Positions 7,840 to 64,000 of a DNA stretch of 64,000 nucleotides are shown piece after piece. Location of the stretch: positions 2,176-66,175 of the forward strand of contig JAFXAA010000030.1 in assembly GCA_017522105.1 (NCBI GenBank), written 5' to 3'. Position 1 is the first letter of the stretch. Every line of letters starts with the position of its first letter. A program made the translations under genes and the position numbers. The notes under the pieces were generated by a model. It was not told the DNA's origin and searched no databases. It saw nothing but the letters and a program-made list of their open reading frames with translations. This DNA comes from Bacteroidales bacterium (GTDB lineage: Bacteria; Bacteroidota; Bacteroidia; Bacteroidales; P3).

Positions 7840-7920
7840 TTTACTTATCCACACCGACCTGTTGATAATAACCTCCCTTCGGCAGGGTGTCGCCGTCCCT
7901 GCTCTGTTGCCCCGCCCGCC

Positions 7921-8050
7921 CTACGGACTTCCTACGGCTGTTCTACGGTTGTTTAACGGTTGTTCTACGGTTGTTCTACGGTTTAAACCGTTAAACAACC
8001 GTAGAACAACCGTTAAACAACCGTAGAACAGCCGTACAAACTCCGTTGCG
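7921..8050. repeat. family A palindromic element, copy 1 (11-nt CTACGGTTGTT-type units, centre GTTTAAAC)
   Basis: Arms of about 53 nt pair with a single 2-nt mismatch. The 103-bp core 7934-8036 is identical to 18421-18523. Confidence 0.95.
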
Positions 8051-8131
8051 GATGGGGCCAACAGGAGGCGGAAAAAGGGCACGGTGGAAAAAAAAGTGGC
8101 ATTTTTTTTTGCTTTTGTTTCGGGAAATATG

Positions 8132-18341: not shown

Positions 18342-18418
18342 CGCCTCCGCCACCCCGTCGGCATGACCTGCGGCATGCCCCTCCGCTCCCTTTTTTGTCC
18401 CCATCCTCACCGGCCCCG

Positions 18419-18536
18419 GTACGGCTGTTCTACGGTTGTTTAACGGTTGTTCTACGGTTGTTCTACGGTTTAAACCGTTAAACAACCGTAGAACAACCGT
18501 TAAACAACCGTAGAACAGCCGTAGGGACTCCGTAGA
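18419..18536. repeat. family A palindromic element, copy 2
   Basis: 18421-18523 is identical to 7934-8036. The right terminus GCCGTAGGGACTCCGTAG is complete and the left terminus is truncated. Confidence 0.95.
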
Positions 18537-18652
18537 GGGGCCGCGGGGGGCATGGAGGGTTGCCGGTGCGATGGAGTGTTGGTGGAGGTGTTGAATGTCA
18601 GATGATTGGTGCAAAATCGGCATTTTTTTACTGTAATATGGAAAAATAATTA

Positions 18653-19382: not shown

Positions 19383-19399
19383 TTTTTGAAATAAAGTTG

Positions 19400-21639: not shown

Positions 21640-22830
21640 ATGCATAATCGGGAGAATGAAAGAGCTATGAAGGAATTGTGTATTGAATACGGCTTCACGT
21701 CGCTGAACCACTATGGCGAGGAGTTGTGCGGCGACAATGTGGAGATGTGTGTCAACGGCGAGTGGACCACGCTGGTGCTCGCCGACGGACTGGGCAGCGG
21801 AGTGAAAGCCAATATCCTCTCCACGCTCACCAGCAAGATACTGTGCACCATGGTGGCCGCAGGGGCCGACATCGAGGAGTGCGTGGAGACGGTCATACAG
21901 ACCCTGCCGGTGTGCAAAGAGCGCCAGGTGGCGTACAGCACCTTCTCTGTCATCCATGTGGACAACCACGGCAAGGGGCATCTCTTTGAGTTTGACAACC
22001 CCGAGGCTATCTGGTACCACGCCGGTCACACGCAGAACTTTCCGCGCATGGAGAAAGAGATATGCGGCAAGAAGGTGTACATCACCGAGCTTGAGCTTGA
22101 GGCCGGCGACATGGTCTTTGTCATGAGCGACGGCACCATACACGCAGGCATAGGCCAGATACTGAATTTCGGCTGGCAGCGCAAAGAAATCATGCAGCAT
22201 CTCGACGCCAACATAGACCCCCACATGTCGGCCCGTGCCGCCGCCTGCCTGCTGGCATCGGCCTGCAACGACCTGTACCTCGACCGTCCCGGCGACGACA
22301 CCACGGTGGCTGCTGTGCGCATACGACCGCGCACCGAGGTGCACATCATGGTGGGTCCGCCGGTTGACAAGGAGCGCGACGCCGAATATGTGGCGAAATT
22401 CATGGAAGGGGCTGACAAGCGCATAGTCTGCGGCGGCACCACGTCGCAGGTGGTGGCACGCTGCATCGGGCAGAAGTTGAAGACATCGTTTGACTTTCCC
22501 GACCGCGAGGTGCCGCCCATAGGCTTCATTGACGGCATCGACCTTACCACCGAGGGGGTCATTACCCTGCGCCGTCTGCTGGCGCTGTCGGAGAGGTATG
22601 TGTCGGTGAAAGACCTGACGCCCAAGACGTACAGCAAGAAGGACGGTGGGTCGCTGCTGGCCAACATTATCTTCGAGGAGAGCACGCATGTGGTGTTCTT
22701 TGTGGGTCAAAATGTCAACGCAGCCCATCAGGGGCTTGACATAGACATCACCATGAAGCTCAAACTTGTGGAGCGCCTGGCAGAGAACCTGCGCCGCATG
22801 GGTAAACAAGTAACTGTCAACTACGACTAA
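21640..22830 (+). CDS. SpoIIE/PP2C-family serine phosphatase
   Basis: GEELCGDNV...LADGLGSGVKANILS...VMSDGTIHAG. The start abuts the upstream stop (TGAATG). Confidence 0.8.
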   Translation: MHNRENERAMKELCIEYGFTSLNHYGEELCGDNVEMCVNGEWTTLVLADGLGSGVKANILSTLTSKILCTMVAAGADIEECVETVIQTLPVCKERQVAYSTFSVIHVDNHGKGHLFEFDNPEAIWYHAGHTQNFPRMEKEICGKKVYITELELEAGDMVFVMSDGTIHAGIGQILNFGWQRKEIMQHLDANIDPHMSARAAACLLASACNDLYLDRPGDDTTVAAVRIRPRTEVHIMVGPPVDKERDAEYVAKFMEGADKRIVCGGTTSQVVARCIGQKLKTSFDFPDREVPPIGFIDGIDLTTEGVITLRRLLALSERYVSVKDLTPKTYSKKDGGSLLANIIFEESTHVVFFVGQNVNAAHQGLDIDITMKLKLVERLAENLRRMGKQVTVNYD

Positions 22831-22838
22831 AGTGATAT

Positions 22839-24302: not shown

Positions 24303-24322
24303 TAGCTTTTTAGGATATACTG

Positions 24323-24357
24323 AAAAACGGTCAACAATAGCTGTTGACCGTTTTTTT
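24323..24357 (+). terminator. rho-independent terminator
   Basis: CGGTCAACA-atagc-TGTTGACCG followed by T7. Confidence 0.85.
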
Positions 24358-24390
24358 GTATTTTTTGCCGTATGAATGAAATAATTTTCG

Positions 24391-24398
24391 TATCTTTG
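24391..24398 (+). promoter_or_regulatory. -7 box TATCTTTG (ppdK)
   Basis: Followed by an AT-rich ~55-nt leader before the ATG at 24456. Confidence 0.6.
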
Positions 24399-24455
24399 CA
24401 GTCTCTAAAAACGATAAAAGTAAAATAATTAATTAATAACTAATATTATACAAAG

Positions 24456-36066: not shown

Positions 36067-36186
36067 CATCTTTCCTACCATCTGCAACTTCCATGCCAAA
36101 AGTTGTTATCAACATCCCCGTGTCAATACCACCGTCCGCCGTTGTACGCGGCTCCACTTTCTCCTGCCTCCCCATGCATCCTCACC

Positions 36187-36311
36187 GGAGTCCCTACGGC
36201 ATTTCTTCAGTAGTTCTTCAGTAGTTCTTCAGTAGTATTTCAGTGTTTGACTGAAGAACTACTGAAGAACTACTGAAGAACTACTGAAGAAATGCCGTAC
36301 CGGCTCCGTAC
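36187..36311. repeat. family B palindromic element, copy 1 (11-nt TTCTTCAGTAG units)
   Basis: GGAGTCCCTACGGCATT-(TCTTCAGTAGT)x3...loop TTTCAGTGTTTGAC...(CTACTGAAGAA)x3-ATGCCGTACCGGCTCCGTAC. Confidence 0.95.
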
Positions 36312-42075: not shown

Positions 42076-42185
42076 CTACGGAGTCCCTACGGCCGTTCTT
42101 CAGTAGTTCTTCAGTAGTTCTTCAGTCAAACACTGAAGAACTACTGAAGAACTACTGAAGAACGGCCGTAGGGGCTCCGTACCGG
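42076..42185. repeat. family B palindromic element, copy 2 (inverted loop orientation)
   Basis: CTACGGAGTCCCTACGGCCG-(TTCTTCAGTAG)x2-TTCTTCAGT-caaac-ACTGAAGAA-(CTACTGAAGAA)x2-CGGCCGTAGGGGCTCCGTACCGG. Confidence 0.95.
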
Positions 42186-42385
42186 ATGCGGTGGAGAGAG
42201 TGTGTGTATGGAACCCTAATAGGGTTATGATATGTTTGGTTGTATGTTGCTGACTATTAAAACGAAACCCATACGGGGTATTGGTGTGGCTGATGGGCGG
42301 AGGGGCGGCTGTCAATGGATGGTGCCTGTGCGGTATTGCGGCCGAAGGTGGATAAAAAAAGAGCTGTTGGAACGGAAAAAAATCG

Positions 42386-44881: not shown

Positions 44882-44912
44882 TTTGCCAGATACAAAACAT
44901 TTAGTATCTTTG
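44882..44912 (+). promoter_or_regulatory. promoter: TTTG (-33) and TATCTTTG (-7)
   Basis: TTTG at 44882-44885 and TATCTTTG at 44905-44912, with a 19-nt spacer. Confidence 0.6.
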
Positions 44913-44961
44913 CAAGCGGAAAGAGAGACAAGGATTGCAGGCTGAAGCCTGTGTATCATAC

Positions 44962-45067
44962 GGTTGGGCAAGTCTTATACGACCAGCTCCCATTGAATCC
45001 CCCAGGGTAGGAATACAGCAAGGGTGTTTGGTTGTAGCGGTGCGATATAAACAGCTTGCCCTTTTTT
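44962..45067 (+). ncRNA. ffs: signal recognition particle RNA (small bacterial SRP / 4.5S type)
   Basis: Helix-8 signature at 45004-45020: AGG-GUA-GGAA-UAC-AGCA, i.e. a GGAA tetraloop flanked by the symmetric-loop AGG/AGCA. The closing helix is GGGCAAG (44966-72) / CTTGCCC (45055-61), followed by T6. A promoter lies upstream. The 5' boundary is uncertain. Confidence 0.65.
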
Positions 45068-45076
45068 AGTGCATAT

Positions 45077-46189
45077 ATGACAAACCAAGAGACTATAAAA
45101 GACCTGAGTGCCCGCAAGGAGGCATTGAGAAAATTCCTCGACATCGAGGCCACGGCGGCATGGATTGCCGAGGAAGAGAAGAAGACGGAAGCGCCCGACT
45201 TCTGGAACGACCCCAAGGAGGCGCAGAAGGTGGTGAAAGGCATCAACGCCAAGAAGGTGTGGGTGACGGCATTCAAGGATGTGGACGAGGTGTGTGGCGA
45301 CCTTGAGGTCATGGGCGAGTTCTTTGAGGCCGGCGATGCCACCGAGGAAGAGCTTCTGGCCCAGATAGCCACCACCCAGAAGAAGGTGGAGGAGTTGGAG
45401 TTCAAGAACATGCTGCGCAACGAGAGCGACCGCCTCGACGCCGTGCTTTCCATCAACGCCGGAGCCGGCGGTGTGGAAGCGCAGGACTGGGCCGAGATGC
45501 TGATGCGCATGTACATACGCTATGCCGAGACACATGGCTACAAGGTGGCAATCAGCAACAGCCTTGACGGCGAAGGCGCTGGAATAAAGAGCTGCACACT
45601 TCAGATAGAGGGCGACTTCGCCTACGGCTACCTGAAGAGTGAGACGGGTGTGCACCGCCTGGTGCGCGTCAGTCCCTTCAACGCCCAAGGCAAACGCATG
45701 ACGAGCTTCACCAGCGTCAGCGTCACACCGCTCATCGACGACACCATAGAGGTGGTCGTGGACATGTCGAAACTCTCTTGGGACACCTTCCGCAGCGGCG
45801 GCGCCGGCGGACAGAACGTCAACAAGGTGGAGAGCGGCGTGCGCCTGCGCTACCAGTACAAAGACCCCTACACCGGCGAGGAGGAGGAGATACTCATTGA
45901 AAACACCGAAACGCGCGACCAGCCGAAGAACAAAGAGAACGCCCTGCGCCTGCTGCGCTCGCAGCTCTACGACCGCGAGATGAAGCACCGCATGGAGGAG
46001 AAAGACAAAATCAAGGCCTCGCAGAAGAAGATCGAGTGGGGCTCGCAGATACGCAGTTATGTGATGGACGACCGCCGCGTCAAGGACCACCGCACCAACT
46101 ACCAGACCAGTGACGTAGCCGGTGTACTCGACGGCAAGCTCGACGAGTTCATCAAAGCCTACCTGATGCAGTTCGGCGCCGACGCCTGA
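45077..46189 (+). CDS. prfB: peptide chain release factor 2 (uninterrupted ORF)
   Basis: SPF tripeptide (RVSPFNAQG) and GGQ motif (SGGAGGQNVNKVE). The start is placed at MTNQETIKDL. Confidence 0.9.
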   Translation: MTNQETIKDLSARKEALRKFLDIEATAAWIAEEEKKTEAPDFWNDPKEAQKVVKGINAKKVWVTAFKDVDEVCGDLEVMGEFFEAGDATEEELLAQIATTQKKVEELEFKNMLRNESDRLDAVLSINAGAGGVEAQDWAEMLMRMYIRYAETHGYKVAISNSLDGEGAGIKSCTLQIEGDFAYGYLKSETGVHRLVRVSPFNAQGKRMTSFTSVSVTPLIDDTIEVVVDMSKLSWDTFRSGGAGGQNVNKVESGVRLRYQYKDPYTGEEEEILIENTETRDQPKNKENALRLLRSQLYDREMKHRMEEKDKIKASQKKIEWGSQIRSYVMDDRRVKDHRTNYQTSDVAGVLDGKLDEFIKAYLMQFGADA

Positions 46190-49474: not shown

Positions 49475-51171
49475 TACAGACCAATCTTTTCGTTTACAAT
49501 CTTCAATATCTCGGCCTCCTGCCTGATGGCTTCGTCCTCGATGGCCTGGGCCTTGGCCAGTATGTCGGCCTTGAAGGCCTCGTCCTTGAGCGAAGAGGCG
49601 TTGATTTTCACGTTCAAGTGAGCACCCATGACGGCGCTGCGTGCTGCCAGCGAGCCCACGCCGCCGTCGGTGACGCTGTTGGGGTTGCCCCACTCCACCA
49701 TGGCGCGGCAGACCTCGAAGGCCTCAAGGCTGCGCTGCATGGTGCGGAAAGGCACCTCGGTGGCGAAGCGTGTGGCCTCCTGGATGGCGGCGCTGCGTGC
49801 GGCCTTCTCCTCGTCGGTCTTCTTGGGCAGGCCGAAGGCGTCCATAATCTTGTTGAAGGCGGCGGTGTCCTCGTCGACGAGGTGCAGCAGCTCGTCCTTC
49901 AGCTGCTGACCCTTGACGGCCACGTCGCTGTACTTCTCCCACTCGTCGTCGTAGGCAGCCTTGCCGCCGGTGAGGTTGGCCACCATGGTGCCGAGGCTTG
50001 CCGCCAGGGCGCCCATGTAGGCGCTGACGGAGCCGCCGCCGGGCGCGGGGCTCTCGCTGGCCGTCTCGTCGCAGAAGCCGCGGCAGGTGAGGTCGACCAG
50101 CTTCTTCTTCGAGTGGTCCTCAATGAGGTATTCTATAACCTTCTCCTTGGGGTCGAAGGGCTTGAGGTCGTCGAGGCCCATGCTCTTTATGGCCACCTTC
50201 ATCAGCTCTTCCTCGCTGACGCCGAGGGAGCGCTGCTGTTTGGCCAGGTAGTAACGGCCGGCGTCGATGAGGACGCTCTTCGGGATGAGGCCCACAATCT
50301 CGCAGCCCGTGACGCGGAGGCCGCGGTTCTGGGCGCAGCGGCACACCTCGTCGAAACAGAGGTGCACGGGGGCCACCTTGATGGAGGTGATGTTCATGCT
50401 CACCTGCGCGATGCCATAGTCCTCGATGTACCAGCCGATGGCCTTGGTGCCTTTCAGGGTGCCGGGAATCATTATGGTCTTGCCGTTCTCGTCCTTGATG
50501 GGCTTGCCACTGGGTTTGCCGCCCTCGCGTTTGGGGCGGCCCTTCTCGCGCACGTCGAAGGCGATGGCGTTGGCGCGGCGCGTGGAGGTGGTGTTGAGGT
50601 TGTAGTTGATGGCCACGAGGAAGTCGCGGGCACCCACCTGAGTGGCGCCGGTGCGGGCGGTGTGGTCGTTCCAGGCGTTGGGGCCGAAGTCGGGCTTCCA
50701 CTCCTCGGTGCCGAGGCGGCTGCTGAGGCTCTCATATTCGCCGGTGCGGCAGTAGGCCAGGTTGCGGCGTTCGGGTTTGAAGGCGGCGTTCTCGTAGCAG
50801 TAGATGGGCACCTGCAGCTCGTCGCCGAGGCGCTTGCCCAGCTTGTGGGCATACTCCACGACCTCTTCCATGGTGATGCCAGCCACGGGGATGAGGGGGC
50901 ACACGTCGGTGGCACCCTGGCGCGGGTGGGCGCCGTGGTGCTGCGTCATGTCGATGAGCTCGGCGGCCTTCTTCACCACCTGGAAAGCGGCTTCAAGCAC
51001 AGGCTCCGGCTCACCCACGAAGGTGATGACGGTGCGGTTGGTGGTCTGGCCGGGGTCCACGTCGAGGAGCTTCACACCTTCAACCTTTTCAATCTCGGCT
51101 GTAACCTGATTGATGATATCCATGTTGCGGCCTTCGCTGATATTAGGCACGCATTCAATGAGTTGCTTCAT
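49474..51171 (-). CDS. ftcD: bifunctional glutamate formimidoyltransferase / formimidoyltetrahydrofolate cyclodeaminase
   Basis: N-terminus MKQLIECVPNISEGRN is typical of formiminotransferase. The 565-aa length fits the transferase plus the helical cyclodeaminase domain. Confidence 0.9.
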   Translation of the reverse strand: MKQLIECVPNISEGRNMDIINQVTAEIEKVEGVKLLDVDPGQTTNRTVITFVGEPEPVLEAAFQVVKKAAELIDMTQHHGAHPRQGATDVCPLIPVAGITMEEVVEYAHKLGKRLGDELQVPIYCYENAAFKPERRNLAYCRTGEYESLSSRLGTEEWKPDFGPNAWNDHTARTGATQVGARDFLVAINYNLNTTSTRRANAIAFDVREKGRPKREGGKPSGKPIKDENGKTIMIPGTLKGTKAIGWYIEDYGIAQVSMNITSIKVAPVHLCFDEVCRCAQNRGLRVTGCEIVGLIPKSVLIDAGRYYLAKQQRSLGVSEEELMKVAIKSMGLDDLKPFDPKEKVIEYLIEDHSKKKLVDLTCRGFCDETASESPAPGGGSVSAYMGALAASLGTMVANLTGGKAAYDDEWEKYSDVAVKGQQLKDELLHLVDEDTAAFNKIMDAFGLPKKTDEEKAARSAAIQEATRFATEVPFRTMQRSLEAFEVCRAMVEWGNPNSVTDGGVGSLAARSAVMGAHLNVKINASSLKDEAFKADILAKAQAIEDEAIRQEAEILKIVNEKIGL

Positions 51172-51194
51172 GTGTTGTAGTTTTAGTTTTGCTG

Positions 51195-51225
51195 CAAAGA
51201 TACACCATTTTTTTATTATGGCAAA
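51195..51225 (-). promoter_or_regulatory. promoter: TTTG and TATCTTTG (ftcD)
   Basis: The plus strand has CAAAGATA at 51195-51202 and CAAA at 51222-25, with a 19-nt spacer. Confidence 0.6.
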
Positions 51226-51257
51226 ATATTTTTGACATTCCTTCCCTGCGTATCCCC

Positions 51258-51388
51258 CACGGAGCCCCTACGGCATTTCTTCAGTAGTTCTTCAGTAGTT
51301 CTTCAGTAGTATTTCGGTGTTTGACTGAAGAACTACTGAAGAACTACTGAAGAACTACTGAAGAAATGCCGTAGGGGCTCCGTAGGGG
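51258..51388. repeat. family B palindromic element, copy 3
   Basis: The core differs from copy 1 by one substitution (TTTCGGTG vs TTTCAGTG). The 17-nt termini ACGGAGCCCCTACGGCA / TGCCGTAGGGGCTCCGT are perfectly complementary. Confidence 0.95.
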
Positions 51389-51479
51389 ATTGGGGGCAGA
51401 ACTGTGGAATGTAGGCGGTGTCGAAATGTTAAATTTTAGGAAAATTCACCGTCGGGCTTGTCGTGTTGGGGAAATTTCG

Positions 51480-51487
51480 TATCTTTG
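51480..51487 (+). promoter_or_regulatory. -7 box TATCTTTG
   Basis: ATG codons follow at 51491 and 51497, i.e. 4 and 10 nt after the box. Confidence 0.55.
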
Positions 51488-51490
51488 CAC

Positions 51491-54022
51491 ATGTTTATGA
51501 GAAAGTTGAAATACTATATATACGCTTTTACAGCACTGGTTTCCATGGGTTTGTGTGGTCGCGCCGGTGCACAGCAGATAGTGCGTGTGGATGTGGACAC
51601 GGTGGCGTGCCTAAACGACACGGTGCGGATTGCCGTGGGCCATACGGCGGCGGCGGACGTGGAGGTGAGGGACATGCTGCTCAACCTCTCGCATGCCGAG
51701 CGGGCCTTCCTGCCCGACGGTGTGTCGTGCCCGCCCTACGGGTGCTCCTACCGCTCGCACGTGACCTTCAGCGGTCTGGACAACAGCGTGCAGATACGCA
51801 CGGTGGAGGACATCAAATTCGTGAGGTTGAACATAGAGCATTCGTTCATCGGCGATCTATACATTGGTGTTGTCTGCCCCAACGGGCAGCGGGCGAGCCT
51901 GATGAACTGGAGCGGCAGCGGCAGCAGCAACTGCGACGACGAGGTGCCGGCAGGCAGCCGCACATGGGCTGCGGGCAGCAATGTGTATGGCAGCACTTAC
52001 CTTGGTGCGGCCTACGACTATTCGGACTACAGTTACAAATGTGACTCTACAAGCAGCGACAACGCCCCCGGCACGGGGTGGAACTACTGCTGGAGCAGCA
52101 GCAACACCCACGGCTACCAGTATGCCAGCGGCGACGGACGCATCTACCGCTCGGCCAACCGTTCGGGCAACAGCATAGACAGCAGCATCGTGGCGCAGGG
52201 CCGTAGGTTCTACCGCCCAGACCAGAGCTTCCAGAACCTGGTGGGATGCCCGGTGAACGGCACGTGGTACATAGAGGTCATCGACGCCTACAGCGGCGAC
52301 AACGGGTGGGTGTTCGACTGGGAGCTGTCGCTGGACGAGACGCTGGTGCCCATGGCAGGCGTGATGACAGGCTGCACGGTGCTGGGCGAAGAGGTGATGC
52401 GGCAGAACGACACGGTGTGGCACGTGTCGGCCCCGGCCGGGGCCACCGGCGACACGACGGTTGACTACATGGTGCGCATCTACGGCACCGGCTCGCCGTC
52501 GGTGCGCGACACCGTGGTGAGTGTGCACTACTACCCGCTGCTCGCCACCGAGCAGAGCGACACCCTCTGCTGGGGCGACACGGCAACGCTGGCCGGCGTG
52601 GGCACCCTGACGCGCGACACCACGGTGGTGCGCCGTCTGACGAGTGTGCACGGGTGCGACAGCGTGGTGACGAACAGCTATTTCTTCCGCGAGAAGATTG
52701 AGAACATAGACACCGACTACGTGTGCTACGGCGAGTCGCTGACGGTGGGGAGCGTCGTGGTGACGCGCGACACCGTGCTGAGCGACACGCTGACGGCGGC
52801 TTGCGGGTGCGACAGCGTGGTGAGCCGCGCCGTGTTCTTCCGCCCGCCGTTCACGGGGAGGGATTCGGTGCTGGCCTGCATGGGCGACACCTTGTGGGTC
52901 GGTGCTGTGAGCGTGACGACAGACACCACGGTGGCCGACACGCTGACGGCGGCCTGCGGGTGCGACAGCGTGGTGGCGCGGGTGTTCACCTACCACCCCG
53001 TCTATACCACCCACGACACGGTGGCCTTCTGCGCCGTGGACGGCTACCACTACGACACGCTGGACTTCGACGCCCCTGGCGACTACGTGCTGCCGCGCAC
53101 CTCGGCATGGGGGTGCGACAGTACGGTGAAGGTCAGAATCAACGTCATCGACAGCACGTTCCTGCCCCGCATACTGCTGAGCGACGACGGCGAGCGGTGG
53201 AGCGACGACACCGTGCTGCTGGGCTGCGAGCCCTACGGCGTGTCGCTGAAGGACACCACGCCGCTGACGGTGTGGCGGCAATGGATCATTGACCCGGCCG
53301 ACACCGTGGCCGGCGACACGCTGGTGAGCCACCGCTTCGACAGCGTCGGCGTCTACGGCGTGACGCTTCTCTCGGTCAGCGCCGGCGGCTGCCGCGACAC
53401 GCTGCGAATGGACAGCGTGGTGTGGGTGTTCCGCAACCCCGAGGCCCACTTCAGCTGGCTGCCGCTGGAGCCTCCTATGCACGACCCGCAGGCCGACTTC
53501 GTCAACGAGTCGTGGCCGCAGGGCGAGGGCATGGCATGGCGGTGGCAGATTGGCGGCACCGACGGAAGCGACACGAGCAGCGAGTATGAACCCCACTACC
53601 GCTGGGACAACGAGGGCGTGAACCCGTCGGGCGAACACACGGTGACGCTGACGGCCCTGTGGACGCACCAAGGCCCCGACACGCTGACGGCAGTGTGCAG
53701 CGACACGGCGGAGCACACCGTCACGGTGGTCAACGATTGGCTGCAGTTCCCGAGCCTGGTGACGCCCAACGGCGACGGCATCAACGACACATGGGAGGTG
53801 GTGAACCTGGTGGATATGGGGCAGTACCCGATGAACGAGATATGGATTTTCAACCAGTGGGGTGTGCAGGTGTTCCACGCCAAGAACGTGTACCGCCACG
53901 AGGACTTCTGGGACCCCAACGCCACCAACAGCCCCGACGGCACCTACTATTTCCGCTTCTCGGCGCGCAGCGCATGGGGGGTGGTGAAGCAGAACGGCAC
54001 CATTGAGGTGATGAGGAATTAG
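51491..54022 (+). CDS. T9SS type-B (gliding-motility C-terminal domain) cargo protein with N-terminal proprotein-convertase P-domain-like module, GCDS repeats and a PKD-like domain
   Basis: Signal peptide; P-domain signature HSFIGDLYIGVVCPNGQ; repeats ending ...GCDSVV; C-terminus FPSLVTPNGDGINDTWEV...GTYYFRF. The true start may be 51497. Confidence 0.85.
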   Translation: MFMRKLKYYIYAFTALVSMGLCGRAGAQQIVRVDVDTVACLNDTVRIAVGHTAAADVEVRDMLLNLSHAERAFLPDGVSCPPYGCSYRSHVTFSGLDNSVQIRTVEDIKFVRLNIEHSFIGDLYIGVVCPNGQRASLMNWSGSGSSNCDDEVPAGSRTWAAGSNVYGSTYLGAAYDYSDYSYKCDSTSSDNAPGTGWNYCWSSSNTHGYQYASGDGRIYRSANRSGNSIDSSIVAQGRRFYRPDQSFQNLVGCPVNGTWYIEVIDAYSGDNGWVFDWELSLDETLVPMAGVMTGCTVLGEEVMRQNDTVWHVSAPAGATGDTTVDYMVRIYGTGSPSVRDTVVSVHYYPLLATEQSDTLCWGDTATLAGVGTLTRDTTVVRRLTSVHGCDSVVTNSYFFREKIENIDTDYVCYGESLTVGSVVVTRDTVLSDTLTAACGCDSVVSRAVFFRPPFTGRDSVLACMGDTLWVGAVSVTTDTTVADTLTAACGCDSVVARVFTYHPVYTTHDTVAFCAVDGYHYDTLDFDAPGDYVLPRTSAWGCDSTVKVRINVIDSTFLPRILLSDDGERWSDDTVLLGCEPYGVSLKDTTPLTVWRQWIIDPADTVAGDTLVSHRFDSVGVYGVTLLSVSAGGCRDTLRMDSVVWVFRNPEAHFSWLPLEPPMHDPQADFVNESWPQGEGMAWRWQIGGTDGSDTSSEYEPHYRWDNEGVNPSGEHTVTLTALWTHQGPDTLTAVCSDTAEHTVTVVNDWLQFPSLVTPNGDGINDTWEVVNLVDMGQYPMNEIWIFNQWGVQVFHAKNVYRHEDFWDPNATNSPDGTYYFRFSARSAWGVVKQNGTIEVMRN

Positions 54023-54065
54023 CTTTGAGCTATGAGTTAATGAACACTGAACACTATTACAAGCA

Positions 54066-57000
54066 ATGAACAGATATAGGACAAGAATGAGAGGTGGCGT
54101 GACGCTTCGACTGGCAGCGTGCCTGCTGGCGGTTGTGTGTTGCCTCCTTTCGGCCACGGCGCAGAACACTACCCACGGCTACCTGCGCTTCGACCTGCCC
54201 ACCGACGTGTGTGCGGGCACCACGCAGACCTTCCGCTTCGGCTACAACGCGCAATTCAACGTGGTGTTCGACCTGCCGCAGGCGTCGCAGAGCCATGCCG
54301 AGCGGGCCTTCCTACCCGACGGCGTGTCATGTTCGCCCTACGGCTGCTCCTACCGTTCCAACGTCACATTCAGCAGCTTCGCCCCCGGTGCGACGCTGAC
54401 TTCAGTGCAGGACATCAAGTATGTGCGTGTTAACATGGAACACAGCTGGATAGGCGACTTGTACATCGGTATCGTCTGCCCTAACGGGCAGCGCGCGAGC
54501 CTGATGAACTGGAGCGGCGACGGCAGCAGCAGCTGCGACGACGAGGTGCCTGCGGGTCACCGCACCTGGGTGTCGGGCAGCAATGTGAGCAACGGAACAT
54601 ACCTCGGCAACCCTTATGATTACTCAAACTCTTTATACCCCTGCGATTCAACAAACAGTAACAACCAGCCAGGCTCTGGCTGGAACTACTGCTGGAGCAA
54701 CAACACCACGAGCGGCTATCAGTATGCCAGCGGCGACGGGCGCATCTACCGTTTGGCCAACCGTACGGGAAGCAGCATCGACAGCAGCAATGTGGCGCTG
54801 GGACGCAAGTTCTACCATCCTGACCAGAACTTCAGCAGCCTCACAGGGTGCCCGCTGAATGGCAACTGGTATATTGAAGTTATCGACGCTTGGAGCGGCG
54901 ACAACGGCTGGATATTCGACTGGGAGCTGGCGCTCAACCCCAACCTGCTGCCCACGGACTGCGCCCTGCTGAAGCGCGAGGTGATAGGGGCGCGTGTGAC
55001 AAGGCAGAACGACTCGACCTACCGGTTCTCGGCTCCGTCGGTGACACACGATTCCGTGTTCCCCGTGACGTTCAGGATAGTGAGCACCTGTGGCGACACC
55101 ATTGACAGCACGGCCTACATCACCGTGCACCCGAAATACAACATCACCGAATACGACACGGCGTGCGACAGCTACACCCTTTTCGAGCAGACCTACACGC
55201 ACGACATCATGGTGGTCAAGCACTTCACTTCGGTGGGCAACTGCGACAGCACCATGCGCTACCGCCTGCACATACTGCATTCCGACCAGACAGAAGTGCA
55301 CGACACTGTGCTGCAGAACCAGCTGCCCTACGTGGTGGACGGCGAGACCCTGGTGCCGGCGCTCCCGCCACTGCCACCCTACCCCTCCGGCGGAGCCACG
55401 CTGCTCGACACCACGCTGCTGAGGACCAACCGCACGGGGTGCGACAGTACGGTGAGCATGACGCTTTTCGTGTGGTACAACATAGCCGACACGGTGGACA
55501 GCACCGTATGCCGACACCAGCTGCCGCTGACGTGGAACGGCGTGGAGTTCGTCGACGCAGGCCAACAGACCGTCACGCTGACGGGCAGCCACGGAGTGGA
55601 CAGCCTGCTGACGATGCGGGTGGCCGTGATAGAGGACACTCGGCTTGACGTGCACGACACCGTGGTGGAAAACCAGCTGCCATGGGGCCTCGACGGACAC
55701 GAAACCTTTGCCGGCGACACCGCCGTTGAATACATGACTGTCAATGCGGGAGGCTGCGACAGCCTGATAACATACAGCCTGCATGTGTGGCGCAACAGCC
55801 TCGACTCCATAGACAGCACCGTATGCCGACACCAGCTGCCGATAGAGTGGAACGGACTGACGTTTGCCGACGCCGGGGTGCAGACGCTGATGCTGGCCGA
55901 CGTGCACGGCGCCGACAGCGTGACGGTGATGACCCTCGCCGTGAACGAAGACAACCTGGGAGAATGGAGCGACACGGTGGTGGAGAACAACCTGCCGTGG
56001 CCGGGAGTGGAAGGCTTCGAACCGCTGACAGGCACCACAGACACGCTGTACCTGCTGCAGAACGCCGCAGGATGCGACAGCCTGCTGCACTACTCGCTGC
56101 ACGTGTGGTGGAACCGCAGGACGGAGATAGACAGCTCGGTGTGCCGTCACGAGCTGCCGGTGGTATGGAACGGAGAGACTTTCGGCGACAGCGGCACCAA
56201 GACAGTGACACTGGCGGAAAGCCACGGTGCGGACAGTCTCGTGGTGATGACGCTGAGTGTGAGGGAAGATACCTACAATGATATAAAAGACACTGTGGTG
56301 GAGAACAACCTGCCGTGGATGCGTTCAGGCATCGGTACCTTCGACACCATAGCCGACACGGCTATTATGCTGGCCAACGCCCAAGGATGCGACAGCATCG
56401 TGAGCTTCAGCCTGCACGTGTGGTACAATGTGGAAGAAAGCTTCGACACTGTGGTGTGCGACAACGTGTGGCCGCTGGTGTGGCGTGGTGCGCGCTTCAA
56501 TGGCGGCAGCACCGTACAGCGCACACTCTACAACGCCCATGGAGCCGACAGCACCGTGCACCTGACGGTGACGGCCATGCCGGTGTACGACAGCACCATA
56601 GAAGCCGAGACCTGCGACAACACAGGATACGTGCACGACGGACAGACCCTGCGGAGGAATGGCGTCTTCCGCTTCATGTACACCACGGCGGCGGGTTGCG
56701 ACAGCCTCGTCCGCATCAGTCTTAGGGTATGGCCGACAGCGTCGGAGAAGGACTATGACACAGTGTGCCTCTCGGAACTGCCCTACTCATGGGAAGGACA
56801 ATCTCTGTTCTATGGCGGCAAGTCGGACATAACATCCACCGTCATGATGGCCACCGTGCACGGATGCGACAGCGTGAGGAGCCTCAGCCTCGCCGTAAAG
56901 GGCATATACCTCATGGCCCGGCCGCACATAACACCCACCGTGGTGACCCTCGAAGACCCGAAGATTGTATTCAACGACAACAGTCGCGACGCCACCAGCC

Positions 57001-57428
57001 GACTGTGGATTGTGGACGACTACCAGACTGACAGGCAGAGCTTCAGCTACACCTATACCTCGGAGGTTGACTCGCTGCCCGTTACCCTCATCGCCTACAA
57101 CACCGAGAGCTGTACCGATACGGCCAGGACGCTGATACTGCTCGACCGCTCGGCACTCATTGCGCCCAACGTCTTCACCCCCGACCAGGAAATCAACAAC
57201 CACTGGTTCGTTGCCACCACCGACATTACGGAAATACACGTCTGGATATACAACCGCCACGGCAACCTTGTGGGCGAATATACCGACATAGACGGCTATT
57301 GGGACGGACACACCCTCGACGGCCATCCCTGCCCACAAGGGGCATACGTGTACAAAGTGCAATACCGCACCAAAGTGCATCCAGACCGCCTTCAAGACAA
57401 GACCGGGACGCTGCTCCTGCTCAAATAA
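54066..57428 (+). CDS. T9SS type-B cargo protein, tandem paralog of the upstream gene, with an expanded repeat region
   Basis: The N-terminal ~300 aa are collinear with the upstream protein (AERAFLPDGVSC, GDLYIGIVCPNGQRASLMNWSG, GYQYASGDGRIYR). More than 10 C/GCDS-type repeats are present. C-terminus PNVFTPDQEINNHWFV...GAYVYKV. Confidence 0.85.
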   Translation: MNRYRTRMRGGVTLRLAACLLAVVCCLLSATAQNTTHGYLRFDLPTDVCAGTTQTFRFGYNAQFNVVFDLPQASQSHAERAFLPDGVSCSPYGCSYRSNVTFSSFAPGATLTSVQDIKYVRVNMEHSWIGDLYIGIVCPNGQRASLMNWSGDGSSSCDDEVPAGHRTWVSGSNVSNGTYLGNPYDYSNSLYPCDSTNSNNQPGSGWNYCWSNNTTSGYQYASGDGRIYRLANRTGSSIDSSNVALGRKFYHPDQNFSSLTGCPLNGNWYIEVIDAWSGDNGWIFDWELALNPNLLPTDCALLKREVIGARVTRQNDSTYRFSAPSVTHDSVFPVTFRIVSTCGDTIDSTAYITVHPKYNITEYDTACDSYTLFEQTYTHDIMVVKHFTSVGNCDSTMRYRLHILHSDQTEVHDTVLQNQLPYVVDGETLVPALPPLPPYPSGGATLLDTTLLRTNRTGCDSTVSMTLFVWYNIADTVDSTVCRHQLPLTWNGVEFVDAGQQTVTLTGSHGVDSLLTMRVAVIEDTRLDVHDTVVENQLPWGLDGHETFAGDTAVEYMTVNAGGCDSLITYSLHVWRNSLDSIDSTVCRHQLPIEWNGLTFADAGVQTLMLADVHGADSVTVMTLAVNEDNLGEWSDTVVENNLPWPGVEGFEPLTGTTDTLYLLQNAAGCDSLLHYSLHVWWNRRTEIDSSVCRHELPVVWNGETFGDSGTKTVTLAESHGADSLVVMTLSVREDTYNDIKDTVVENNLPWMRSGIGTFDTIADTAIMLANAQGCDSIVSFSLHVWYNVEESFDTVVCDNVWPLVWRGARFNGGSTVQRTLYNAHGADSTVHLTVTAMPVYDSTIEAETCDNTGYVHDGQTLRRNGVFRFMYTTAAGCDSLVRISLRVWPTASEKDYDTVCLSELPYSWEGQSLFYGGKSDITSTVMMATVHGCDSVRSLSLAVKGIYLMARPHITPTVVTLEDPKIVFNDNSRDATSRLWIVDDYQTDRQSFSYTYTSEVDSLPVTLIAYNTESCTDTARTLILLDRSALIAPNVFTPDQEINNHWFVATTDITEIHVWIYNRHGNLVGEYTDIDGYWDGHTLDGHPCPQGAYVYKVQYRTKVHPDRLQDKTGTLLLLK
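55497..56445 (+). repeat. three tandem ~315-nt (105-aa) coding super-repeats
   Basis: GACAGCACCGTATGCCGACACCAGCTGCCG recurs at 55497 and 55812, and a diverged copy is at 56130. Each unit comprises a 'DSxVCRHxLPxxWNG' module and a 'DTVVENxLPW...GCDS' module. Confidence 0.85.
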
Positions 57429-62802: not shown

Positions 62803-64000
62803 TTACCTTATCACCACCACCTTGCGGGCGGGATAGGCGCCAATCTTAATCATATAGGTACCACTGACGGGTGCGTCGAAGTATAGTGGAGTGTAGTCGT
62901 CCTGCTTGGTGGCTAAAATACGCCCGTTCACGTCATAGAGCGTCACTCTGTTGCCGTCGGCGCCTTCCACGACTATCTGGCCTTGACTTGAATACACTTT
63001 GGCATTCAGTGCTTCGACGCCATTGATGGCTTCATGGGTTATATAAACCGTGTCGTGAATGATGACGGTGTCGTGCAGCCAGATGGTATCAAATTGCGTC
63101 AACCACAACGTGTCTGTAAGCGTCAACGTGTCGTATATGTAATTGTCTATGGTGTCATAAACGGTGTTGGTGATAGTGTCAAATTGTGTCACCGTCAGTG
63201 TGTCAACCACTATTGTCGTATCATGTACAGCGTAGGGCACGTCTATGTAGGTGGTGTCGTGTACTTCAATGTAAGTAGTGTCATGTACGGCATACGGTAT
63301 ATCGATGTAGGTGGTGTCGTGTACTTCAATGTAAGTAGTGTCATGTACGGCATACGGCACATCTATGTAGGTGGTGTCATGTACGTCTATGTAAGTGGTG
63401 TCATGTACGGCATACGGCACATCTATGTAGGTGGTGTCGTGTACGTCTATATATGTGGTGTCATGCACAGCGTATGGTATGTAGGTAGTATCATGCACAT
63501 TGATGTAGGTGGTGTCGTGTACGTCTATATATGTGGTGTCATGCACAGCGTATGGTATGTAGGTAGTATCATGCACATCGATGTAGGTGGTGTCGTGTAC
63601 ATCAACGTTAATAGTGTCATATAGCACCACTGTGTCTTGCCAAGGTTCGCCGTCGGCGACAAAGAAGGCTGTCAATGATAAATCCTGCAATACAGCAAAA
63701 GTGTAGGGGTTGTATGTAGATCCATTGCTCCAATGTGTGAAACTGTAACCGCTATATGGTGTTGCAGAAACTGTAATTGGTTGCCCATACTCTCTATTAC
63801 CGGCACCGCTGACTGAGCCGTGAGCCAAATTGTCGACTTGAACGTCAACTGCATGGACATCAATAGCGAAATAGGCAGTATATATTTTGTTGTCATCGAA
63901 CACAAAACGACGTGGATTTTCGGTATTGCCGTCATTCCATTGAATGAAGTGGTAGTGGGGTATTGGGATTGCAAAAATCAGTGACGTACTGTTGAGGTAC
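62803..64000 (-). CDS. T9SS type-A cargo protein with Listeria-Bacteroides-type repeats and an HDTTYI tandem-repeat stalk (5' end outside the window)
   Basis: The frame stays open upstream of the track start (a GTG at 63903) to the window edge (...HYHFIQWNDNGNTENPRRF...). C-terminus KVYSSQGQIVVEG...YDVNGRILA...GTYMIKI. Confidence 0.8.
   Translation of the reverse strand, partial: YLNSTSLIFAIPIPHYHFIQWNDGNTENPRRFVFDDNKIYTAYFAIDVHAVDVQVDNLAHGSVSGAGNREYGQPITVSATPYSGYSFTHWSNGSTYNPYTFAVLQDLSLTAFFVADGEPWQDTVVLYDTINVDVHDTTYIDVHDTTYIPYAVHDTTYIDVHDTTYINVHDTTYIPYAVHDTTYIDVHDTTYIDVPYAVHDTTYIDVHDTTYIDVPYAVHDTTYIEVHDTTYIDIPYAVHDTTYIEVHDTTYIDVPYAVHDTTIVVDTLTVTQFDTITNTVYDTIDNYIYDTLTLTDTLWLTQFDTIWLHDTVIIHDTVYITHEAINGVEALNAKVYSSQGQIVVEGADGNRVTLYDVNGRILATKQDDYTPLYFDAPVSGTYMIKIGAYPARKVVVIR
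63205..63612 (-). repeat. coding tandem repeat: 14 HDTT(Y/I)I units organised as near-identical 60-nt double units
   Basis: For example, 63241-63300 and 63301-63360 differ at only about 4 positions. The encoded unit is VHDTTYI(D/E)VHDTTYIDVPYA. Confidence 0.9.

What the first reader, a model, noticed from the sequence alone, without database searches (positions are those of the whole stretch)
51258..51388. Family B copy 3: one substitution relative to copy 1, perfectly complementary 17-nt termini
The ~105-bp core matches copy 1 (15 kb away) except for one A-to-G change in the loop region. The termini ACGGAGCCCCTACGGCA and TGCCGTAGGGGCTCCGT are exact reverse complements.

The element begins 33 nt upstream of the ftcD -33 element and ends about 90 nt upstream of the -7 box of the first P-domain T9SS gene. 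That makes it the fourth divergent-promoter location out of five copies in this window.
Basis: seen in the sequence. Interest (0 to 1): 0.65.

Follow-up and report, generated by a model that had tools for sequence, protein, structure and literature searches.

The report
Modular palindromic repeat between divergent promoters
This is one copy of a large, undescribed family of 110-170 bp near-perfect DNA palindromes built from 11-base modules in uncultured gut and rumen Bacteroidales; the copies sit overwhelmingly in the untranscribed spacers between back-to-back genes, the opposite of classical bacterial REP repeats.

Summary
Window 51252-51390 is a 139-nt near-perfect palindrome with exact 17-nt inverted termini. 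Its 105-nt core differs from copy 1 (36178-36310) by one base, at 51316.

It is built from 11-nt modules: AT-rich and uniform near the centre, GC-rich and decaying outward.

The window has five such elements. Four lie between divergent genes.

The result was 45 divergent, 15 tandem and 0 convergent. A length-proportional null expects 18.6, 33 and 8.4 (p about 1e-12).

Sister species carry an element at four orthologous spacers. The inner modules there differ (family A versus B), and loop type is genome-specific. So sites persist while content is homogenised across loci.

Strains differ in unit number and loop orientation, and short-read contigs break inside the element.

A RayT-like Y1 transposase sits in one element-bearing contig. 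It is flanked by small REP hairpins that share CCGTAGGGG with the outer modules.

Best reading: a REPIN/MITE-like DNA-level hairpin element, prone to cruciform formation, tied to promoter-upstream DNA. Function is untested. It is a new variant of a known kind.

The parts
51252..51390 (.). Whole palindromic element (family B, copy 3): two 67-nt arms and a 5-nt loop
   Evidence: I6: 94% complementary; fold z-scores -21 and -19
51259..51275 (+). Left 17-nt terminus ACGGAGCCCCTACGGCA, made of two GC-rich outer 11-nt modules of the CCCCYACGG type
51367..51383 (+). Right 17-nt terminus TGCCGTAGGGGCTCCGT, the exact reverse complement of the left one. It carries CCGTAGGGG, the 9-mer shared with the small REP hairpins that flank the RayT-like genes
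51277..51310 (+). Left inner array, 3.1 copies of the 11-nt unit TTCTTCAGTAG (100% matches)
51324..51365 (+). Right inner array, 3.8 copies of ACTGAAGAACT (100% matches)
51316..51316 (+). The single difference from copy 1 within the 105-nt core (G here, A in copy 1). It lies in the diverged innermost left unit TATTTCGGTG, three pairs from the loop
   Evidence: for the alignment; for the coordinate
51319..51323 (+). Loop GTTTG. Other strains have the reverse complement CAAAC at this same site
51195..51225 (-). ftcD promoter of Bacteroidetes type: -33 TTTG (51225-51222), 19-nt spacer, -7 TATCTTTG (51202-51195). It lies outside the element and faces away from it
   Evidence: read; the consensus is established knowledge of Bacteroides sigma-A promoters; picks up the same site
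51480..51499 (+). -7 box TATCTTTG (51480-51487) and the probable ATG (51497) of the first P-domain/CHU_C T9SS gene. It lies outside the element and faces away from it
36178..36310 (.). Family B copy 1, between clpB (minus) and argS (plus)
42076..42197 (.). Family B copy 2, loop CAAAC, between a 324-aa ORF (minus) and priA (plus)
7910..8061 (.). Family A copy 1 (unit CTACGGTTGTT), between nrdD with its B12 riboswitch (minus) and an aldehyde dehydrogenase gene (plus)
18395..18546 (.). Family A copy 2, between the xerC/D stop codon and the rex promoter (both genes on the plus strand)
42266..42280 (+). Small REP-like hairpin AACCCATACGGGGTA (perfect AACCCCTACGGGGTA in other strains), 70 nt right of copy B2. 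It is the same hairpin type that flanks the RayT-like genes

Best explanation
The element is one member of a dispersed, high-copy family of modular palindromes in a GC-rich clade of uncultured gut and rumen Bacteroidales.

**Anatomy**
- Each copy is a string of 11-nt modules mirrored about a tiny loop.
- The modules fit the consensus NYYCTWCRGNN. Most unit types carry GTAG or CTAC.
- The inner 3-4 modules per arm are AT-rich and nearly identical among copies. The outer modules are GC-rich and fade into the flanks.

**How it acts**
- It most likely acts as DNA, not as RNA, because it sits upstream of, and between, outward-facing promoters where no transcript is expected.
- Its design is a long perfect inverted repeat with an AT-rich centre and a GC-rich base. 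Its position is the zone of transcription-driven negative supercoiling. Together these make cruciform or hairpin extrusion the expected physical behaviour (inferred, not shown).

**How the family is most likely maintained (inferred)**
- Hairpin-dependent processes seem to keep the family going.
- Breakage or processing at the extruded tip, followed by repair from other copies, is one candidate. Cleavage and joining at GTAG-bearing modules by a RayT-like Y1 (HUH) enzyme is another.
- Either process would homogenise the centres across loci, flip loops, change unit number in 11-nt steps, and place rearrangement breakpoints at elements.

**What this makes it**
A REPIN/MITE-like genomic resident whose persistence is tied to promoter-upstream DNA, especially divergent spacers. 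Any effect on the flanking promoters, such as absorbing supercoils or insulating them from each other, would be a consequence that has not been shown.
For: **Shown**
- Palindrome and periodicity.
- Location bias: 45 divergent, 15 tandem, 0 convergent, against 18.6, 33 and 8.4 expected (p = 8e-13). Outward-facing TAnnTTTG boxes give independent support for the orientation classes.
- Gradient along the arms:
  - inner 33 nt: 91-98% paired, 37-42% GC;
  - 34-66 nt from the centre: 55-71% paired, 65-72% GC;
  - beyond about 77 nt: no better than random.
- Strain polymorphism at one site: 3 versus 4 units per arm, loop GTTTG versus CAAAC, and 11-nt indels. Boundary modules co-vary between the arms, with intermediate forms also seen.
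- Orthologous spacers in sister species (85-99% amino-acid identity) all hold an element. Two of them hold B-type modules where this window has A-type.
- A1 and A2 are 96% identical to each other. B1 and B3 differ by 1 nt in 105.
- Loop type is genome-specific: all GTTTG/CAAAC here, mostly GCSGC in the sister genomes.
- Synteny breaks fall at element edges.
- Transcription signals: no terminator-like T-run and no Rfam family match.
- RayT lead:
  - A 153-aa PF01797 protein lies in a contig that also carries B elements.
  - It is flanked by small REP hairpins, GACCCCGTAGGGGTC and AACCCCTACGGGGTA.
  - These share the 9-mer CCGTAGGGG with the outer modules.
  - The same hairpin type lies 70 nt from B2.
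  - All four exact CCGTAGGGG sites in the window lie inside B2 or B3, against 0.37 expected.
Against: - No filled-versus-empty site pair was found, and no target-site duplication is visible, so transposition itself is not demonstrated.
- The element ends are fuzzy rather than sharp, which is unlike a cut-and-paste element.
- The RayT-like gene is flanked by small REPs, not by the long palindromes. I could not show that it is present in the window's own genome.
- No transposase-like gene recurs next to elements across 1.1 Mb of element-bearing loci.
- All four orthologous spacers checked in sister species are occupied. A more distant relative (L130) has a different 11-nt array, and a non-palindromic one, at the same ftcD|T9SS spacer. 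Both facts fit a selected host function at least as well as a selfish resident.
- Cruciform extrusion in vivo is inferred from sequence and position only.
- Loop orientation and unit numbers come from short-read assemblies. These can mis-resolve palindromes, although k=141 contigs do span an arm plus the loop.
Confidence: 0.5

Rival explanations
1. Host-selected DNA-structure element. In this reading the 11-bp-phased array, palindromic or not, is kept between divergent promoters because it does something useful there. It might buffer or insulate transcription-generated negative supercoils by extruding as a cruciform, or set curvature or plectoneme position. Either would decouple or tune the two promoters. 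The sequence family would then be interchangeable, and the structural property would be what selection preserves.
For: - Occupancy ranks divergent (79%), then tandem (19%), then convergent (0%). This matches the expected rank of local negative supercoiling in the twin-domain model.
- All four orthologous spacers in sister species are occupied even though the module family differs.
- The relative L130 has a different, direct (non-palindromic) 11-nt array of about 12 units at the same ftcD|T9SS spacer. It also has a palindromic array of another unit type at priA|argS.
- Lag 11 is the dominant strong period in intergenic DNA here: 30 intergenic regions at lag 11, 13 at lags 7 or 14, none at any other lag from 6 to 16; the TRF period histogram also peaks at 11. 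Eleven bp is close to the helical repeat of underwound DNA (established knowledge).
- The AT-rich centre and GC-rich base suit extrusion.
Against: - There are no expression data.
- Distance from the element to the -7 boxes varies widely (10th-90th percentile 81-234 nt).
- Two short divergent spacers in the window lack any array.
- Identity across all 11 positions of the inner units, across loci and across species, looks like copying rather than selection for a physical property.
- A quarter of copies lie in tandem spacers.
Confidence: 0.27
2. Iteron-type protein-binding array. Each 11-nt module would be a binding site, one per helical turn, for a DNA-binding protein that coats the spacer. The mirror arrangement would present the same array to both promoters. 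Candidates are a regulator, a nucleoid-associated protein or a ParR/omega-like ribbon-helix-helix protein.
For: - The exact 11-nt phasing and the shared core CTWCRG across the A, B and outer modules.
- The mirror symmetry means each divergent promoter sees the same upstream array.
- Precedents from established knowledge: the 11-bp iterons of plasmid R1 parC, and the heptad arrays bound by omega.
Against: - There are 73 distinct 11-nt unit types in these loci.
- Modules are swapped (A versus B) at orthologous sites.
- Unit number varies between strains.
- All 11 positions are conserved within a family, which is not the pattern of a degenerate binding motif.
- No candidate binding-protein gene recurs next to elements.
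Confidence: 0.1
3. RNA element. The palindrome would be transcribed and would act as a very stable hairpin, for example as a bidirectional terminator or insulator, an RNase III substrate, or a small-RNA precursor.
For: - The predicted RNA hairpin is extremely stable, at -130 kcal/mol.
- Element-like sequence appears in contigs assembled from bovine-gut metatranscriptome libraries, attached to foreign flanks.
- The tandem-context copies, such as A2 downstream of xerC/D, could be transcribed as 3' UTR.
Against: - 75% of sites lie between outward-facing promoters, and none lies between convergent genes, where terminators and classical transcribed REPs concentrate (PMC3733652).
- There is no T-run and no terminator-like site.
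- There is no Rfam family match. Only sub-threshold matches to eukaryotic miRNA hairpin models appear, and on both strands.
- The metatranscriptome signal comes from k-mer depth of assembled contigs for a multi-copy, multi-species repeat. DNA carry-over cannot be excluded, and depth was low in two of the four libraries.
Confidence: 0.07
4. Assembly artefact: a fold-back chimera or a collapsed repeat created by the assembler.
For: - Eight of ten same-species contigs end inside the element.
- Palindromes are hard for de Bruijn assemblers to resolve.
Against: - The same element, with the same unique flanks on both sides, is found in independent assemblies from ENA, JGI, NCBI and Logan. It lies inside contigs of up to 405 kb.
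- Orthologous copies exist in other species.
Confidence: 0.01

Closest known systems
REP / BIME / REPIN elements with their RAYT (TnpA-REP, Y1 HUH) transposases
   Same: - High-copy extragenic palindromes.
- REPINs are inverted REP doublets that fold into one long hairpin of about 100 nt.
- GTAG-tagged units.
- Vertical persistence at sites, with a genome-specific 'master' sequence.
- A PF01797 gene flanked by REP hairpins exists in an element-bearing genome, and those hairpins share CCGTAGGGG with the outer modules.
   Different: - Classical REPs lie mainly between unidirectional and convergent ORFs and are thought to be transcribed (PMC3733652). These elements lie between divergent promoters and never, in 60 sites, between convergent genes.
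- The body here is a tandem array of 11-nt modules with variable copy number.
- The conserved part is the centre, and the ends are fuzzy.
- The nearby Y1 protein has the motifs of subclass 1.2 (DHVH, WQ, YIQNQKQHH). PMC6006769 describes that subclass as lacking recognised REP partners.
- The long palindromes do not flank that gene.
BrickBuilt MITE of Porphyromonas gingivalis (PMC4596501)
   Same: - A Bacteroidales intergenic repeat with an internal array of short tandem units.
- The array expands and contracts between strains at conserved loci.
- It is often next to genes for T9SS-secreted proteins.
- It has been discussed as a modulator of neighbouring transcription.
   Different: - BrickBuilt has 23-nt direct repeats between a distinct leader and tail with short terminal inverted repeats, and about 19 copies.
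- It shows 4-nt target duplications and filled/empty sites.
- It is not a whole-length palindrome.
- It has no 11-nt period and no reported divergent-spacer bias.
Correia/NEMIS, ERIC, RUP/BOX-type bacterial MITEs
   Same: - Non-coding repeats of 100-200 bp with inverted ends.
- Near genes and able to form hairpins.
- Sometimes affect promoters.
   Different: - Those elements have defined TIRs and TSDs and a non-repetitive body.
- They are typically co-transcribed.
- None is a perfect palindrome made of helical-repeat-sized modules.
Iteron arrays such as plasmid R1 parC (ParR) or the omega-binding heptads of pSM19035
   Same: Contiguous short repeats with a period of about one helical turn, in direct and inverted orientation, placed at promoters.
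   Different: - Those arrays are few per replicon and are bound by a known adjacent gene product.
- Their unit sequence is conserved by function.
- Here there are on the order of a hundred chromosomal copies (an extrapolation) with many interchangeable unit types.

Membership tests
REPIN/REP-RAYT system | Two REP units in inverted orientation that fold into one hairpin | tested here: met
   The arms are 67 nt and 94% complementary, with inverted CCCCTACGG / CCGTAGGGG outer modules. The body, however, is an 11-nt tandem array, which REPINs do not have.
REPIN/REP-RAYT system | Conserved GTAG (or CGTC) tag at the foot of the REP hairpin | tested here: inconclusive
   GTAG or CTAC occurs in the A, B and outer modules and in 25 of 73 11-nt unit types, against roughly 9% expected by chance. 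It recurs in every module rather than once at a hairpin foot.
REPIN/REP-RAYT system | A cognate, usually single-copy RAYT gene in the same genome, flanked by the same repeat | tested here: inconclusive
   - A 153-aa PF01797 gene lies 2.3 kb from a B element in contig Ga0310695_10000043 (L142).
- It is flanked by small REP hairpins that share a 9-mer with the outer modules, not by the long palindromes.
- There is no Y1 gene in the 64-kb window. The rest of that genome could not be searched.
REPIN/REP-RAYT system | Typical location downstream of genes, between convergent or unidirectional ORFs (transcribed) | tested here: not met
   45 divergent, 15 tandem, 0 convergent. Compare PMC3733652.
MITE (non-autonomous IS derivative) | Sharp terminal inverted repeats plus a target-site duplication, with filled and empty sites among relatives | tested here: not met
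   - Complementarity fades gradually over 35-75 nt from the centre.
- No direct repeat flanks the copies read by eye.
- All four orthologous sites checked in sister species are filled.
MITE (non-autonomous IS derivative) | A related autonomous IS whose ends match the element | tested here: not met
   No recurrent neighbouring gene family and no IS-like ORF was found in 1.1-1.3 Mb of element-bearing loci. Whole genomes were not searchable.
BrickBuilt MITE (P. gingivalis) | 23-nt direct tandem units between a leader and a tail with short TIRs | tested here: not met
   The units are 11 nt and mirrored, and there is no leader or tail (PMC4596501). Sequence similarity to BrickBuilt itself was not tested.
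Intrinsic (bidirectional) terminator | GC-rich hairpin followed by a T-run at the 3' end of a transcription unit | tested here: not met
   No terminator-like site lies in 51100-51600, and the element lies upstream of both flanking promoters.
Any curated RNA family (Rfam 15) | Score at or above the family's gathering threshold | tested here: not met
   No hit on any of the five elements at gathering thresholds. With permissive settings there are only sub-threshold matches to eukaryotic miRNA precursor hairpins, on both strands.
Iteron / centromere-like protein-binding array | A dedicated binding protein encoded nearby and a unit sequence conserved by function | not testable with these tools
   No recurrent neighbouring gene was found, and unit types are many and interchangeable. 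Protein binding cannot be assessed in silico here.

The most novel reading that the evidence does not exclude
A clade of gut and rumen Bacteroidales has fitted most of its divergent promoter spacers with cruciform-forming arrays phased at 11 bp. In this reading the arrays act as supercoil-responsive insulators or capacitors between back-to-back promoters. They would be built, resized in 11-nt steps and homogenised genome-wide by a domesticated RayT-like (subclass 1.2) HUH enzyme acting on GTAG-bearing modules. This would be the mirror image of REP/BIME-gyrase sites, which sit at the 3' ends of operons.
Probability: 0.15. Interest if true: 0.85.

Novelty: new variant of a known kind. Interest (0 to 1): 0.62.

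Why it matters
- If the divergent-spacer bias reflects function, this would be a natural, genome-wide case of bacteria using extrudable palindromes to manage transcription-coupled supercoiling between back-to-back promoters. That idea has so far been supported mainly by engineered constructs.
- If the bias reflects the element's own biology, it shows a REPIN-like replicator with a niche opposite to that of classical REPs. It would also give a possible partner for the orphan subclass-1.2 Y1 transposases of Bacteroidetes.
- There are practical consequences too:
  - The elements break short-read assemblies of abundant, uncultured gut and rumen Bacteroidales.
  - They mark synteny breakpoints.
  - They are hypervariable between strains (unit number, loop orientation), so they could serve as strain markers.

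Tried and rejected
- The genome-contig scan with the 15-mer CGGAGYCCCTACGGC was too unspecific. Most of the 116 stretches were chance hits in GC-rich phyla, and only RUG061 and RUG377 were informative.
- CRISPR, tRNA and known RNA families: none found.
- Terminator: rejected (and the element's position).
- Phage carriage: no copies in viral contigs.
- A 396-aa ORF in L169 fitted an HUH...Y regular expression, but it has no Pfam domain.
- Recurrent neighbouring genes: only common families recur, such as the T9SS/CHU_C-type secreted proteins, and no element-specific partner.
- RNA evidence from bovine-gut metatranscriptome contigs is uninterpretable for a multi-copy repeat. No raw-read DNA or RNA runs were available, so within-sample heterogeneity could not be measured.
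- Exact-protein look-ups for aldH and argS returned only near-identical strains with identical elements.
- The primase idea (about 11-nt primers, CTG start sites) was dropped because family A units lack CTG/CAG.
- A fixed-distance activator-site model was dropped because element-to-promoter distances vary widely.
- The substitution-rate comparison is crude because repeats align ambiguously. It gave 8.2 versus 4.7 substitutions per 100 nt, and 2.0 versus 0.7 indels per 100 nt, for the element versus its flanks.
Full report
**Observation.** The sequence is as described.
- ACGGAGCCCCTACGGCA (51259-51275) and its exact reverse complement (51367-51383) bracket the element.
- The 17-mer, allowing up to 3 mismatches, occurs 7 times in the window against 0.27 expected.
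- The palindrome runs slightly further than reported. The arms are 51252-51318 and 51324-51390 (67 nt, 94% complementary), around the loop GTTTG.
- Either strand folds into one hairpin. The energy is -130 kcal/mol with RNA parameters and -77 with DNA parameters, 19-21 standard deviations beyond shuffles.
- Over the core of about 105 nt, copy 3 differs from copy 1 (36178-36310) by one base, G versus A at 51316. This is the third stem pair from the loop.
- The stated distances to the ftcD -33 element (33 nt) and to the T9SS gene's -7 box (about 92 nt) are right when the Bacteroidetes promoter consensus TTTG-N19-21-TAnnTTTG is applied.

**Anatomy.** The element is periodic throughout, with an 11-nt register:

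CCCCCACGGAG | CCCCTACGGCA | TTTCTTCAGTA | GTTCTTCAGTA | GTTCTTCAGTA | GTATTTCGGTG, then the loop, then the mirror image.

- Family A (7910-8061 and 18395-18546) has the same plan with the unit CTACGGTTGTT. That unit matches the family B unit CTTCAGTAGTT at 8 of 11 positions. Both families share the outer modules ACGGAGYCCCTACGGC.
- Across 34 complete, non-redundant palindromes there is a gradient:
  - the inner 33 nt of each arm are 91-98% paired and 37-42% GC;
  - positions 34-66 are 55-71% paired and 65-72% GC;
  - complementarity is random beyond about 77 nt.
- The element therefore has a young or homogenised AT-rich core and old or decaying GC-rich outer layers, with no sharp ends.

**Organism and context.**
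- The window is from a 58% GC Bacteroidales genome. Supporting evidence: a Bacteroidales small SRP RNA, and close relatives of FtcD that the sources name only as 'MAG: Bacteroidales bacterium'.
- DNA runs that hold the locus are labelled as gut, sheep and bovine gut metagenomes.
- The five elements lie in these spacers:
  - nrdD (with a B12 riboswitch) | aldehyde dehydrogenase;
  - xerC/D then rex (same direction);
  - clpB | argS;
  - 324-aa ORF | priA;
  - ftcD | P-domain/CHU_C T9SS gene.
- Four of the six divergent spacers in the window hold an element. The two that do not are only 163 and 192 nt long. One of nine tandem spacers and none of six convergent spacers of at least 100 nt hold one.

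**The family elsewhere.**
- A terminal-motif scan of representative genomes was noisy. It did reveal B-type elements in rumen MAG RUG061 with unrelated flanks and different neighbouring genes.
One 357-kb contig held at least nine copies.
- The copies are mosaics of a limited set of 11-nt modules: TTCTTCAGTAG, TTCAACGATAC, TTCGACCATCG, and variants of CCCCTACGG, CCGGTACGG and CCCTTCGG. They are often flanked by further 11-nt arrays of other units.
- In intergenic DNA of these loci, lag 11 is the dominant strong period. At the threshold of 34 of 44 matches there are 30 intergenic regions at lag 11, 13 at lags 7 or 14, and none at any other lag from 6 to 16. In genes only lag 12 passed, in 3 of 566 genes tested at lags 9-12. 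TRF finds 405 period-11 rows and 73 unit types.
- No copy occurs in 2.9 million viral contigs.

**The enrichment test.**
- I called genes with a codon log-likelihood model trained on Pfam-verified genes of the window. It reproduces the window's known genes and gives 86% coding overall.
- I clustered 135 raw elements into 68 sites by flank similarity, then classed each site by the strands of its neighbours.
- Result: 45 divergent, 15 tandem, 0 convergent, and 8 at contig ends.
- If sites fell in proportion to free intergenic length, the expectation is 18.6, 33.0 and 8.4 (chi-square 55.7, p = 8e-13).
- Among spacers with at least 150 nt free, 46 of 58 divergent ones are occupied, against 15 of 77 tandem and 0 of 14 convergent.
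- The loci were fetched because they contain an element. Absolute occupancies are therefore inflated, but the comparison between classes within the same blocks is fair.
- As an independent check, 27 of the 45 'divergent' sites have outward-facing TAnnTTTG boxes on both sides and 16 on one side. Tandem sites have them mostly on the downstream side only. The median distance from the array edge to the -7 box is 125 nt.

**Evolution at a site.** Ten contigs encode an identical FtcD.
- Eight of them end inside the element. This is the signature of a repeat that breaks short-read assemblies.
- The contigs that read into or through the element show 3 or 4 units per arm, loop GTTTG or its complement CAAAC, and an 11-nt indel in the decaying right flank.
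- At copy B2 the boundary module is CCGTT/AACGG in some strains and CATTT/AAATG in others, with one-arm intermediates and an extra unit in one arm.

**Orthologous spacers in sister species.** Flanking proteins are 85-99% identical. All four spacers examined hold an element at the same place between conserved promoter-proximal sequences, but the element's content differs.
- nrdD|aldH and xerC/D-rex carry B-type modules where this window carries A-type.
- ftcD|T9SS carries loop GCTGC instead of GTTTG.
- Within a genome the copies resemble each other more than they resemble their orthologues:
  - A1 and A2 are 96% identical;
  - B1 and B3 differ by 1 nt in 105;
  - all B loops in this species are GTTTG/CAAAC, whereas the sister genomes mostly have GCSGC.

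Sites therefore persist while their cores are overwritten in concert.
- Synteny also breaks at element edges. One lineage loses rex and four further genes exactly at the right edge of the xerC/D element. The genes upstream of priA also differ between lineages.
- A more distant relative (L130) has a direct 11-nt array of about 12 units (TTGATATAGAG) at ftcD|T9SS, not a palindrome. It has a palindromic array of a third unit type at priA|argS.

**A transposase lead.**
- A tblastn search with IS200 TnpA found a 153-aa PF01797 protein in L142. L142 belongs to contig Ga0310695_10000043, which also carries B elements.
- The motifs DHVH, WQEG and YIQNQKQHH match subclass 1.2 of the Y1 superfamily. PMC6006769 describes that subclass as confined mainly to Cyanobacteria and Bacteroidetes, low in copy number, and without recognised end structures.
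- In three genomes this gene is flanked by arrays of small hairpins: GACCCCGTAGGGGTC upstream and AACCCCTACGGGGTA downstream. That is a REP-RAYT-like layout.
- These hairpins share the 9-mer CCGTAGGGG with the outer modules of the long palindromes.
- All four exact occurrences of that 9-mer in the window lie inside B2 or B3, against 0.37 expected.
- The same small hairpin lies 70 nt from B2.
- This is a lead, not a demonstration. The long palindromes do not flank the gene. Small REP-like hairpins are few (30 in 1.1 Mb) and lie mostly in tandem spacers. I could not search the rest of the window's genome.

**DNA or RNA?** The evidence favours DNA.
- Three-quarters of sites lie between outward-facing promoters, and none lies where transcripts converge.
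- There is no T-run.
- No Rfam family matches. There are only sub-threshold matches to miRNA hairpin models, on both strands.
- Element-like sequence does appear in contigs from bovine-gut metatranscriptomes. For a multi-copy, multi-species repeat assembled from k-mers, this cannot be told apart from DNA carry-over or read-through of tandem-context copies.

**Mechanism.**
- Shown: a modular palindrome family, a strong divergent-spacer bias, site persistence with concerted turnover of cores, unit-number and loop-flip polymorphism, and breakpoints at elements.
- Inferred:
  - A long perfect inverted repeat with an AT-rich centre, placed where divergent transcription accumulates negative supercoils, should extrude as a cruciform. 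Established work with engineered constructs shows that transcription drives such extrusion.
  - Processing of the extruded tip, with repair from other copies, or cleavage and joining by a GTAG-recognising HUH enzyme, would explain several features at once. These are centre-out homogenisation, loop inversion, 11-nt step changes and rearrangements.
- Whether the host benefits (supercoil buffering or promoter insulation) is open. The occupancy rank of divergent, then tandem, then convergent, and the presence of some 11-nt array at the same spacers even when the sequence family differs, keep that reading alive.

**Comparison with known families.**
- The closest kinds are REP/REPIN-RAYT systems and, within Bacteroidales, the BrickBuilt MITE (PMC4596501).
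- The element fails defining features of each:
  - REPs sit between unidirectional and convergent ORFs (PMC3733652);
  - MITEs have sharp TIRs and TSDs;
  - BrickBuilt has 23-nt direct units with a leader and a tail.
- My literature searches returned no description of 11-nt modular palindromes in Bacteroidales. Absence from that library is not proof of novelty.
- I file it as a new variant of a known kind.

**Caveats.**
- Gene calls are from my own model.
- The loci were ascertained by the element.
- Strain differences come from short-read assemblies.
- No whole genome could be scanned.
- Nothing here measures transcription or DNA structure.

Noticed in passing
L142 9645-9969; L255 9860-10560; L257 and L258 9700-10770: 153-154-aa Y1 (PF01797) proteins with subclass-1.2 motifs (DHVH, WQEG, YIQNQKQHH) are flanked by arrays of small REP hairpins. 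The upstream hairpins are GACCCCGTAGGGGTC plus a CATATCAATAGAAA tail; the downstream ones are AACCCCTACGGGGTA. PMC6006769 lists this subclass as lacking associated structures. Most contigs that carry close homologues are only about 1 kb long, which suggests repeats on both sides.
   Followed up: partly
window 42205-42285: Two small hairpins, GGAACCCTAATAGGGTT and AACCCATACGGGGTA, lie just right of element B2. They vary between strains by changes that restore pairing (CCCATACGGGG versus CCCCTACGGGG). They are the same type as the REPs that flank the RayT-like genes.
   Followed up: partly
L130 9844-10048 and 17618-17878: A related species (FtcD 96% identical) has about 12 direct 11-nt units (TTGATATAGAG) at the ftcD|T9SS spacer instead of a palindrome. 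In that species priA and argS are direct divergent neighbours with a palindromic GAGACGGAGTT array between them. In the window these two genes each sit next to a B element, 5.8 kb apart, so a rearrangement between elements is plausible.
   Followed up: partly
L231, L237 and L146 versus window 18342-24455: In one sister lineage, the element downstream of xerC/D is followed directly by the orthologue of window gene 24456-27227. Rex and four further genes (window 18687-24302) are missing, and the breakpoint is at the element's right edge.
   Followed up: partly
flanks of many elements, for example L131, L140, L157, L232, L165; also L032 and L111: The long palindromes are often flanked by other short-period arrays. 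Some are 11-nt units (GGCTGGTAGAC, TAGCCGTTTAG, GGCTACAAAAA, CACCCCCTTTT). Others are roughly 7-nt units (AAAACTC/AAAACTA, GGAGTTG). The A5/T5-containing 11-nt units would be phased A-tracts, that is, intrinsically curved DNA.
   Followed up: no
window 7592-7807 (minus) and 14021-14214 (minus): Two cobalamin riboswitches. The first is in the leader of the anaerobic ribonucleotide reductase gene nrdD. Element A1 lies about 100 nt upstream of that gene's -7 box.
   Followed up: no
window 63215-63650, inside ORF 62803-63903 (minus): Long in-frame tandem repeats of 60 and 78 nt (TRF scores 354-378) inside a coding region. They are unrelated to the 11-nt elements.
   Followed up: no
window 51458-57428: Two adjacent paralogous P-domain/CHU_C T9SS genes. 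Their 5' regions are 73-86% identical (51692-52102 versus 54294-54704), and they contain internal repeats of about 153-318 nt carrying a conserved GCGACAGC motif. The relative L130 has a single, shorter gene (619 aa) in this position.
   Followed up: no
L117-L126 (contig ends): Eight of ten same-species contigs stop 110-192 nt upstream of ftcD, inside the element. Several also stop inside B2. These repeats are therefore a systematic cause of fragmentation in short-read MAGs of this clade.
   Followed up: yes
L120 and L123 6227-7021 versus window about 44900-45077: Some strains carry an extra ZIP-family transporter gene (239 aa) between priA and the RF-1 gene. The window strain lacks it.
   Followed up: no
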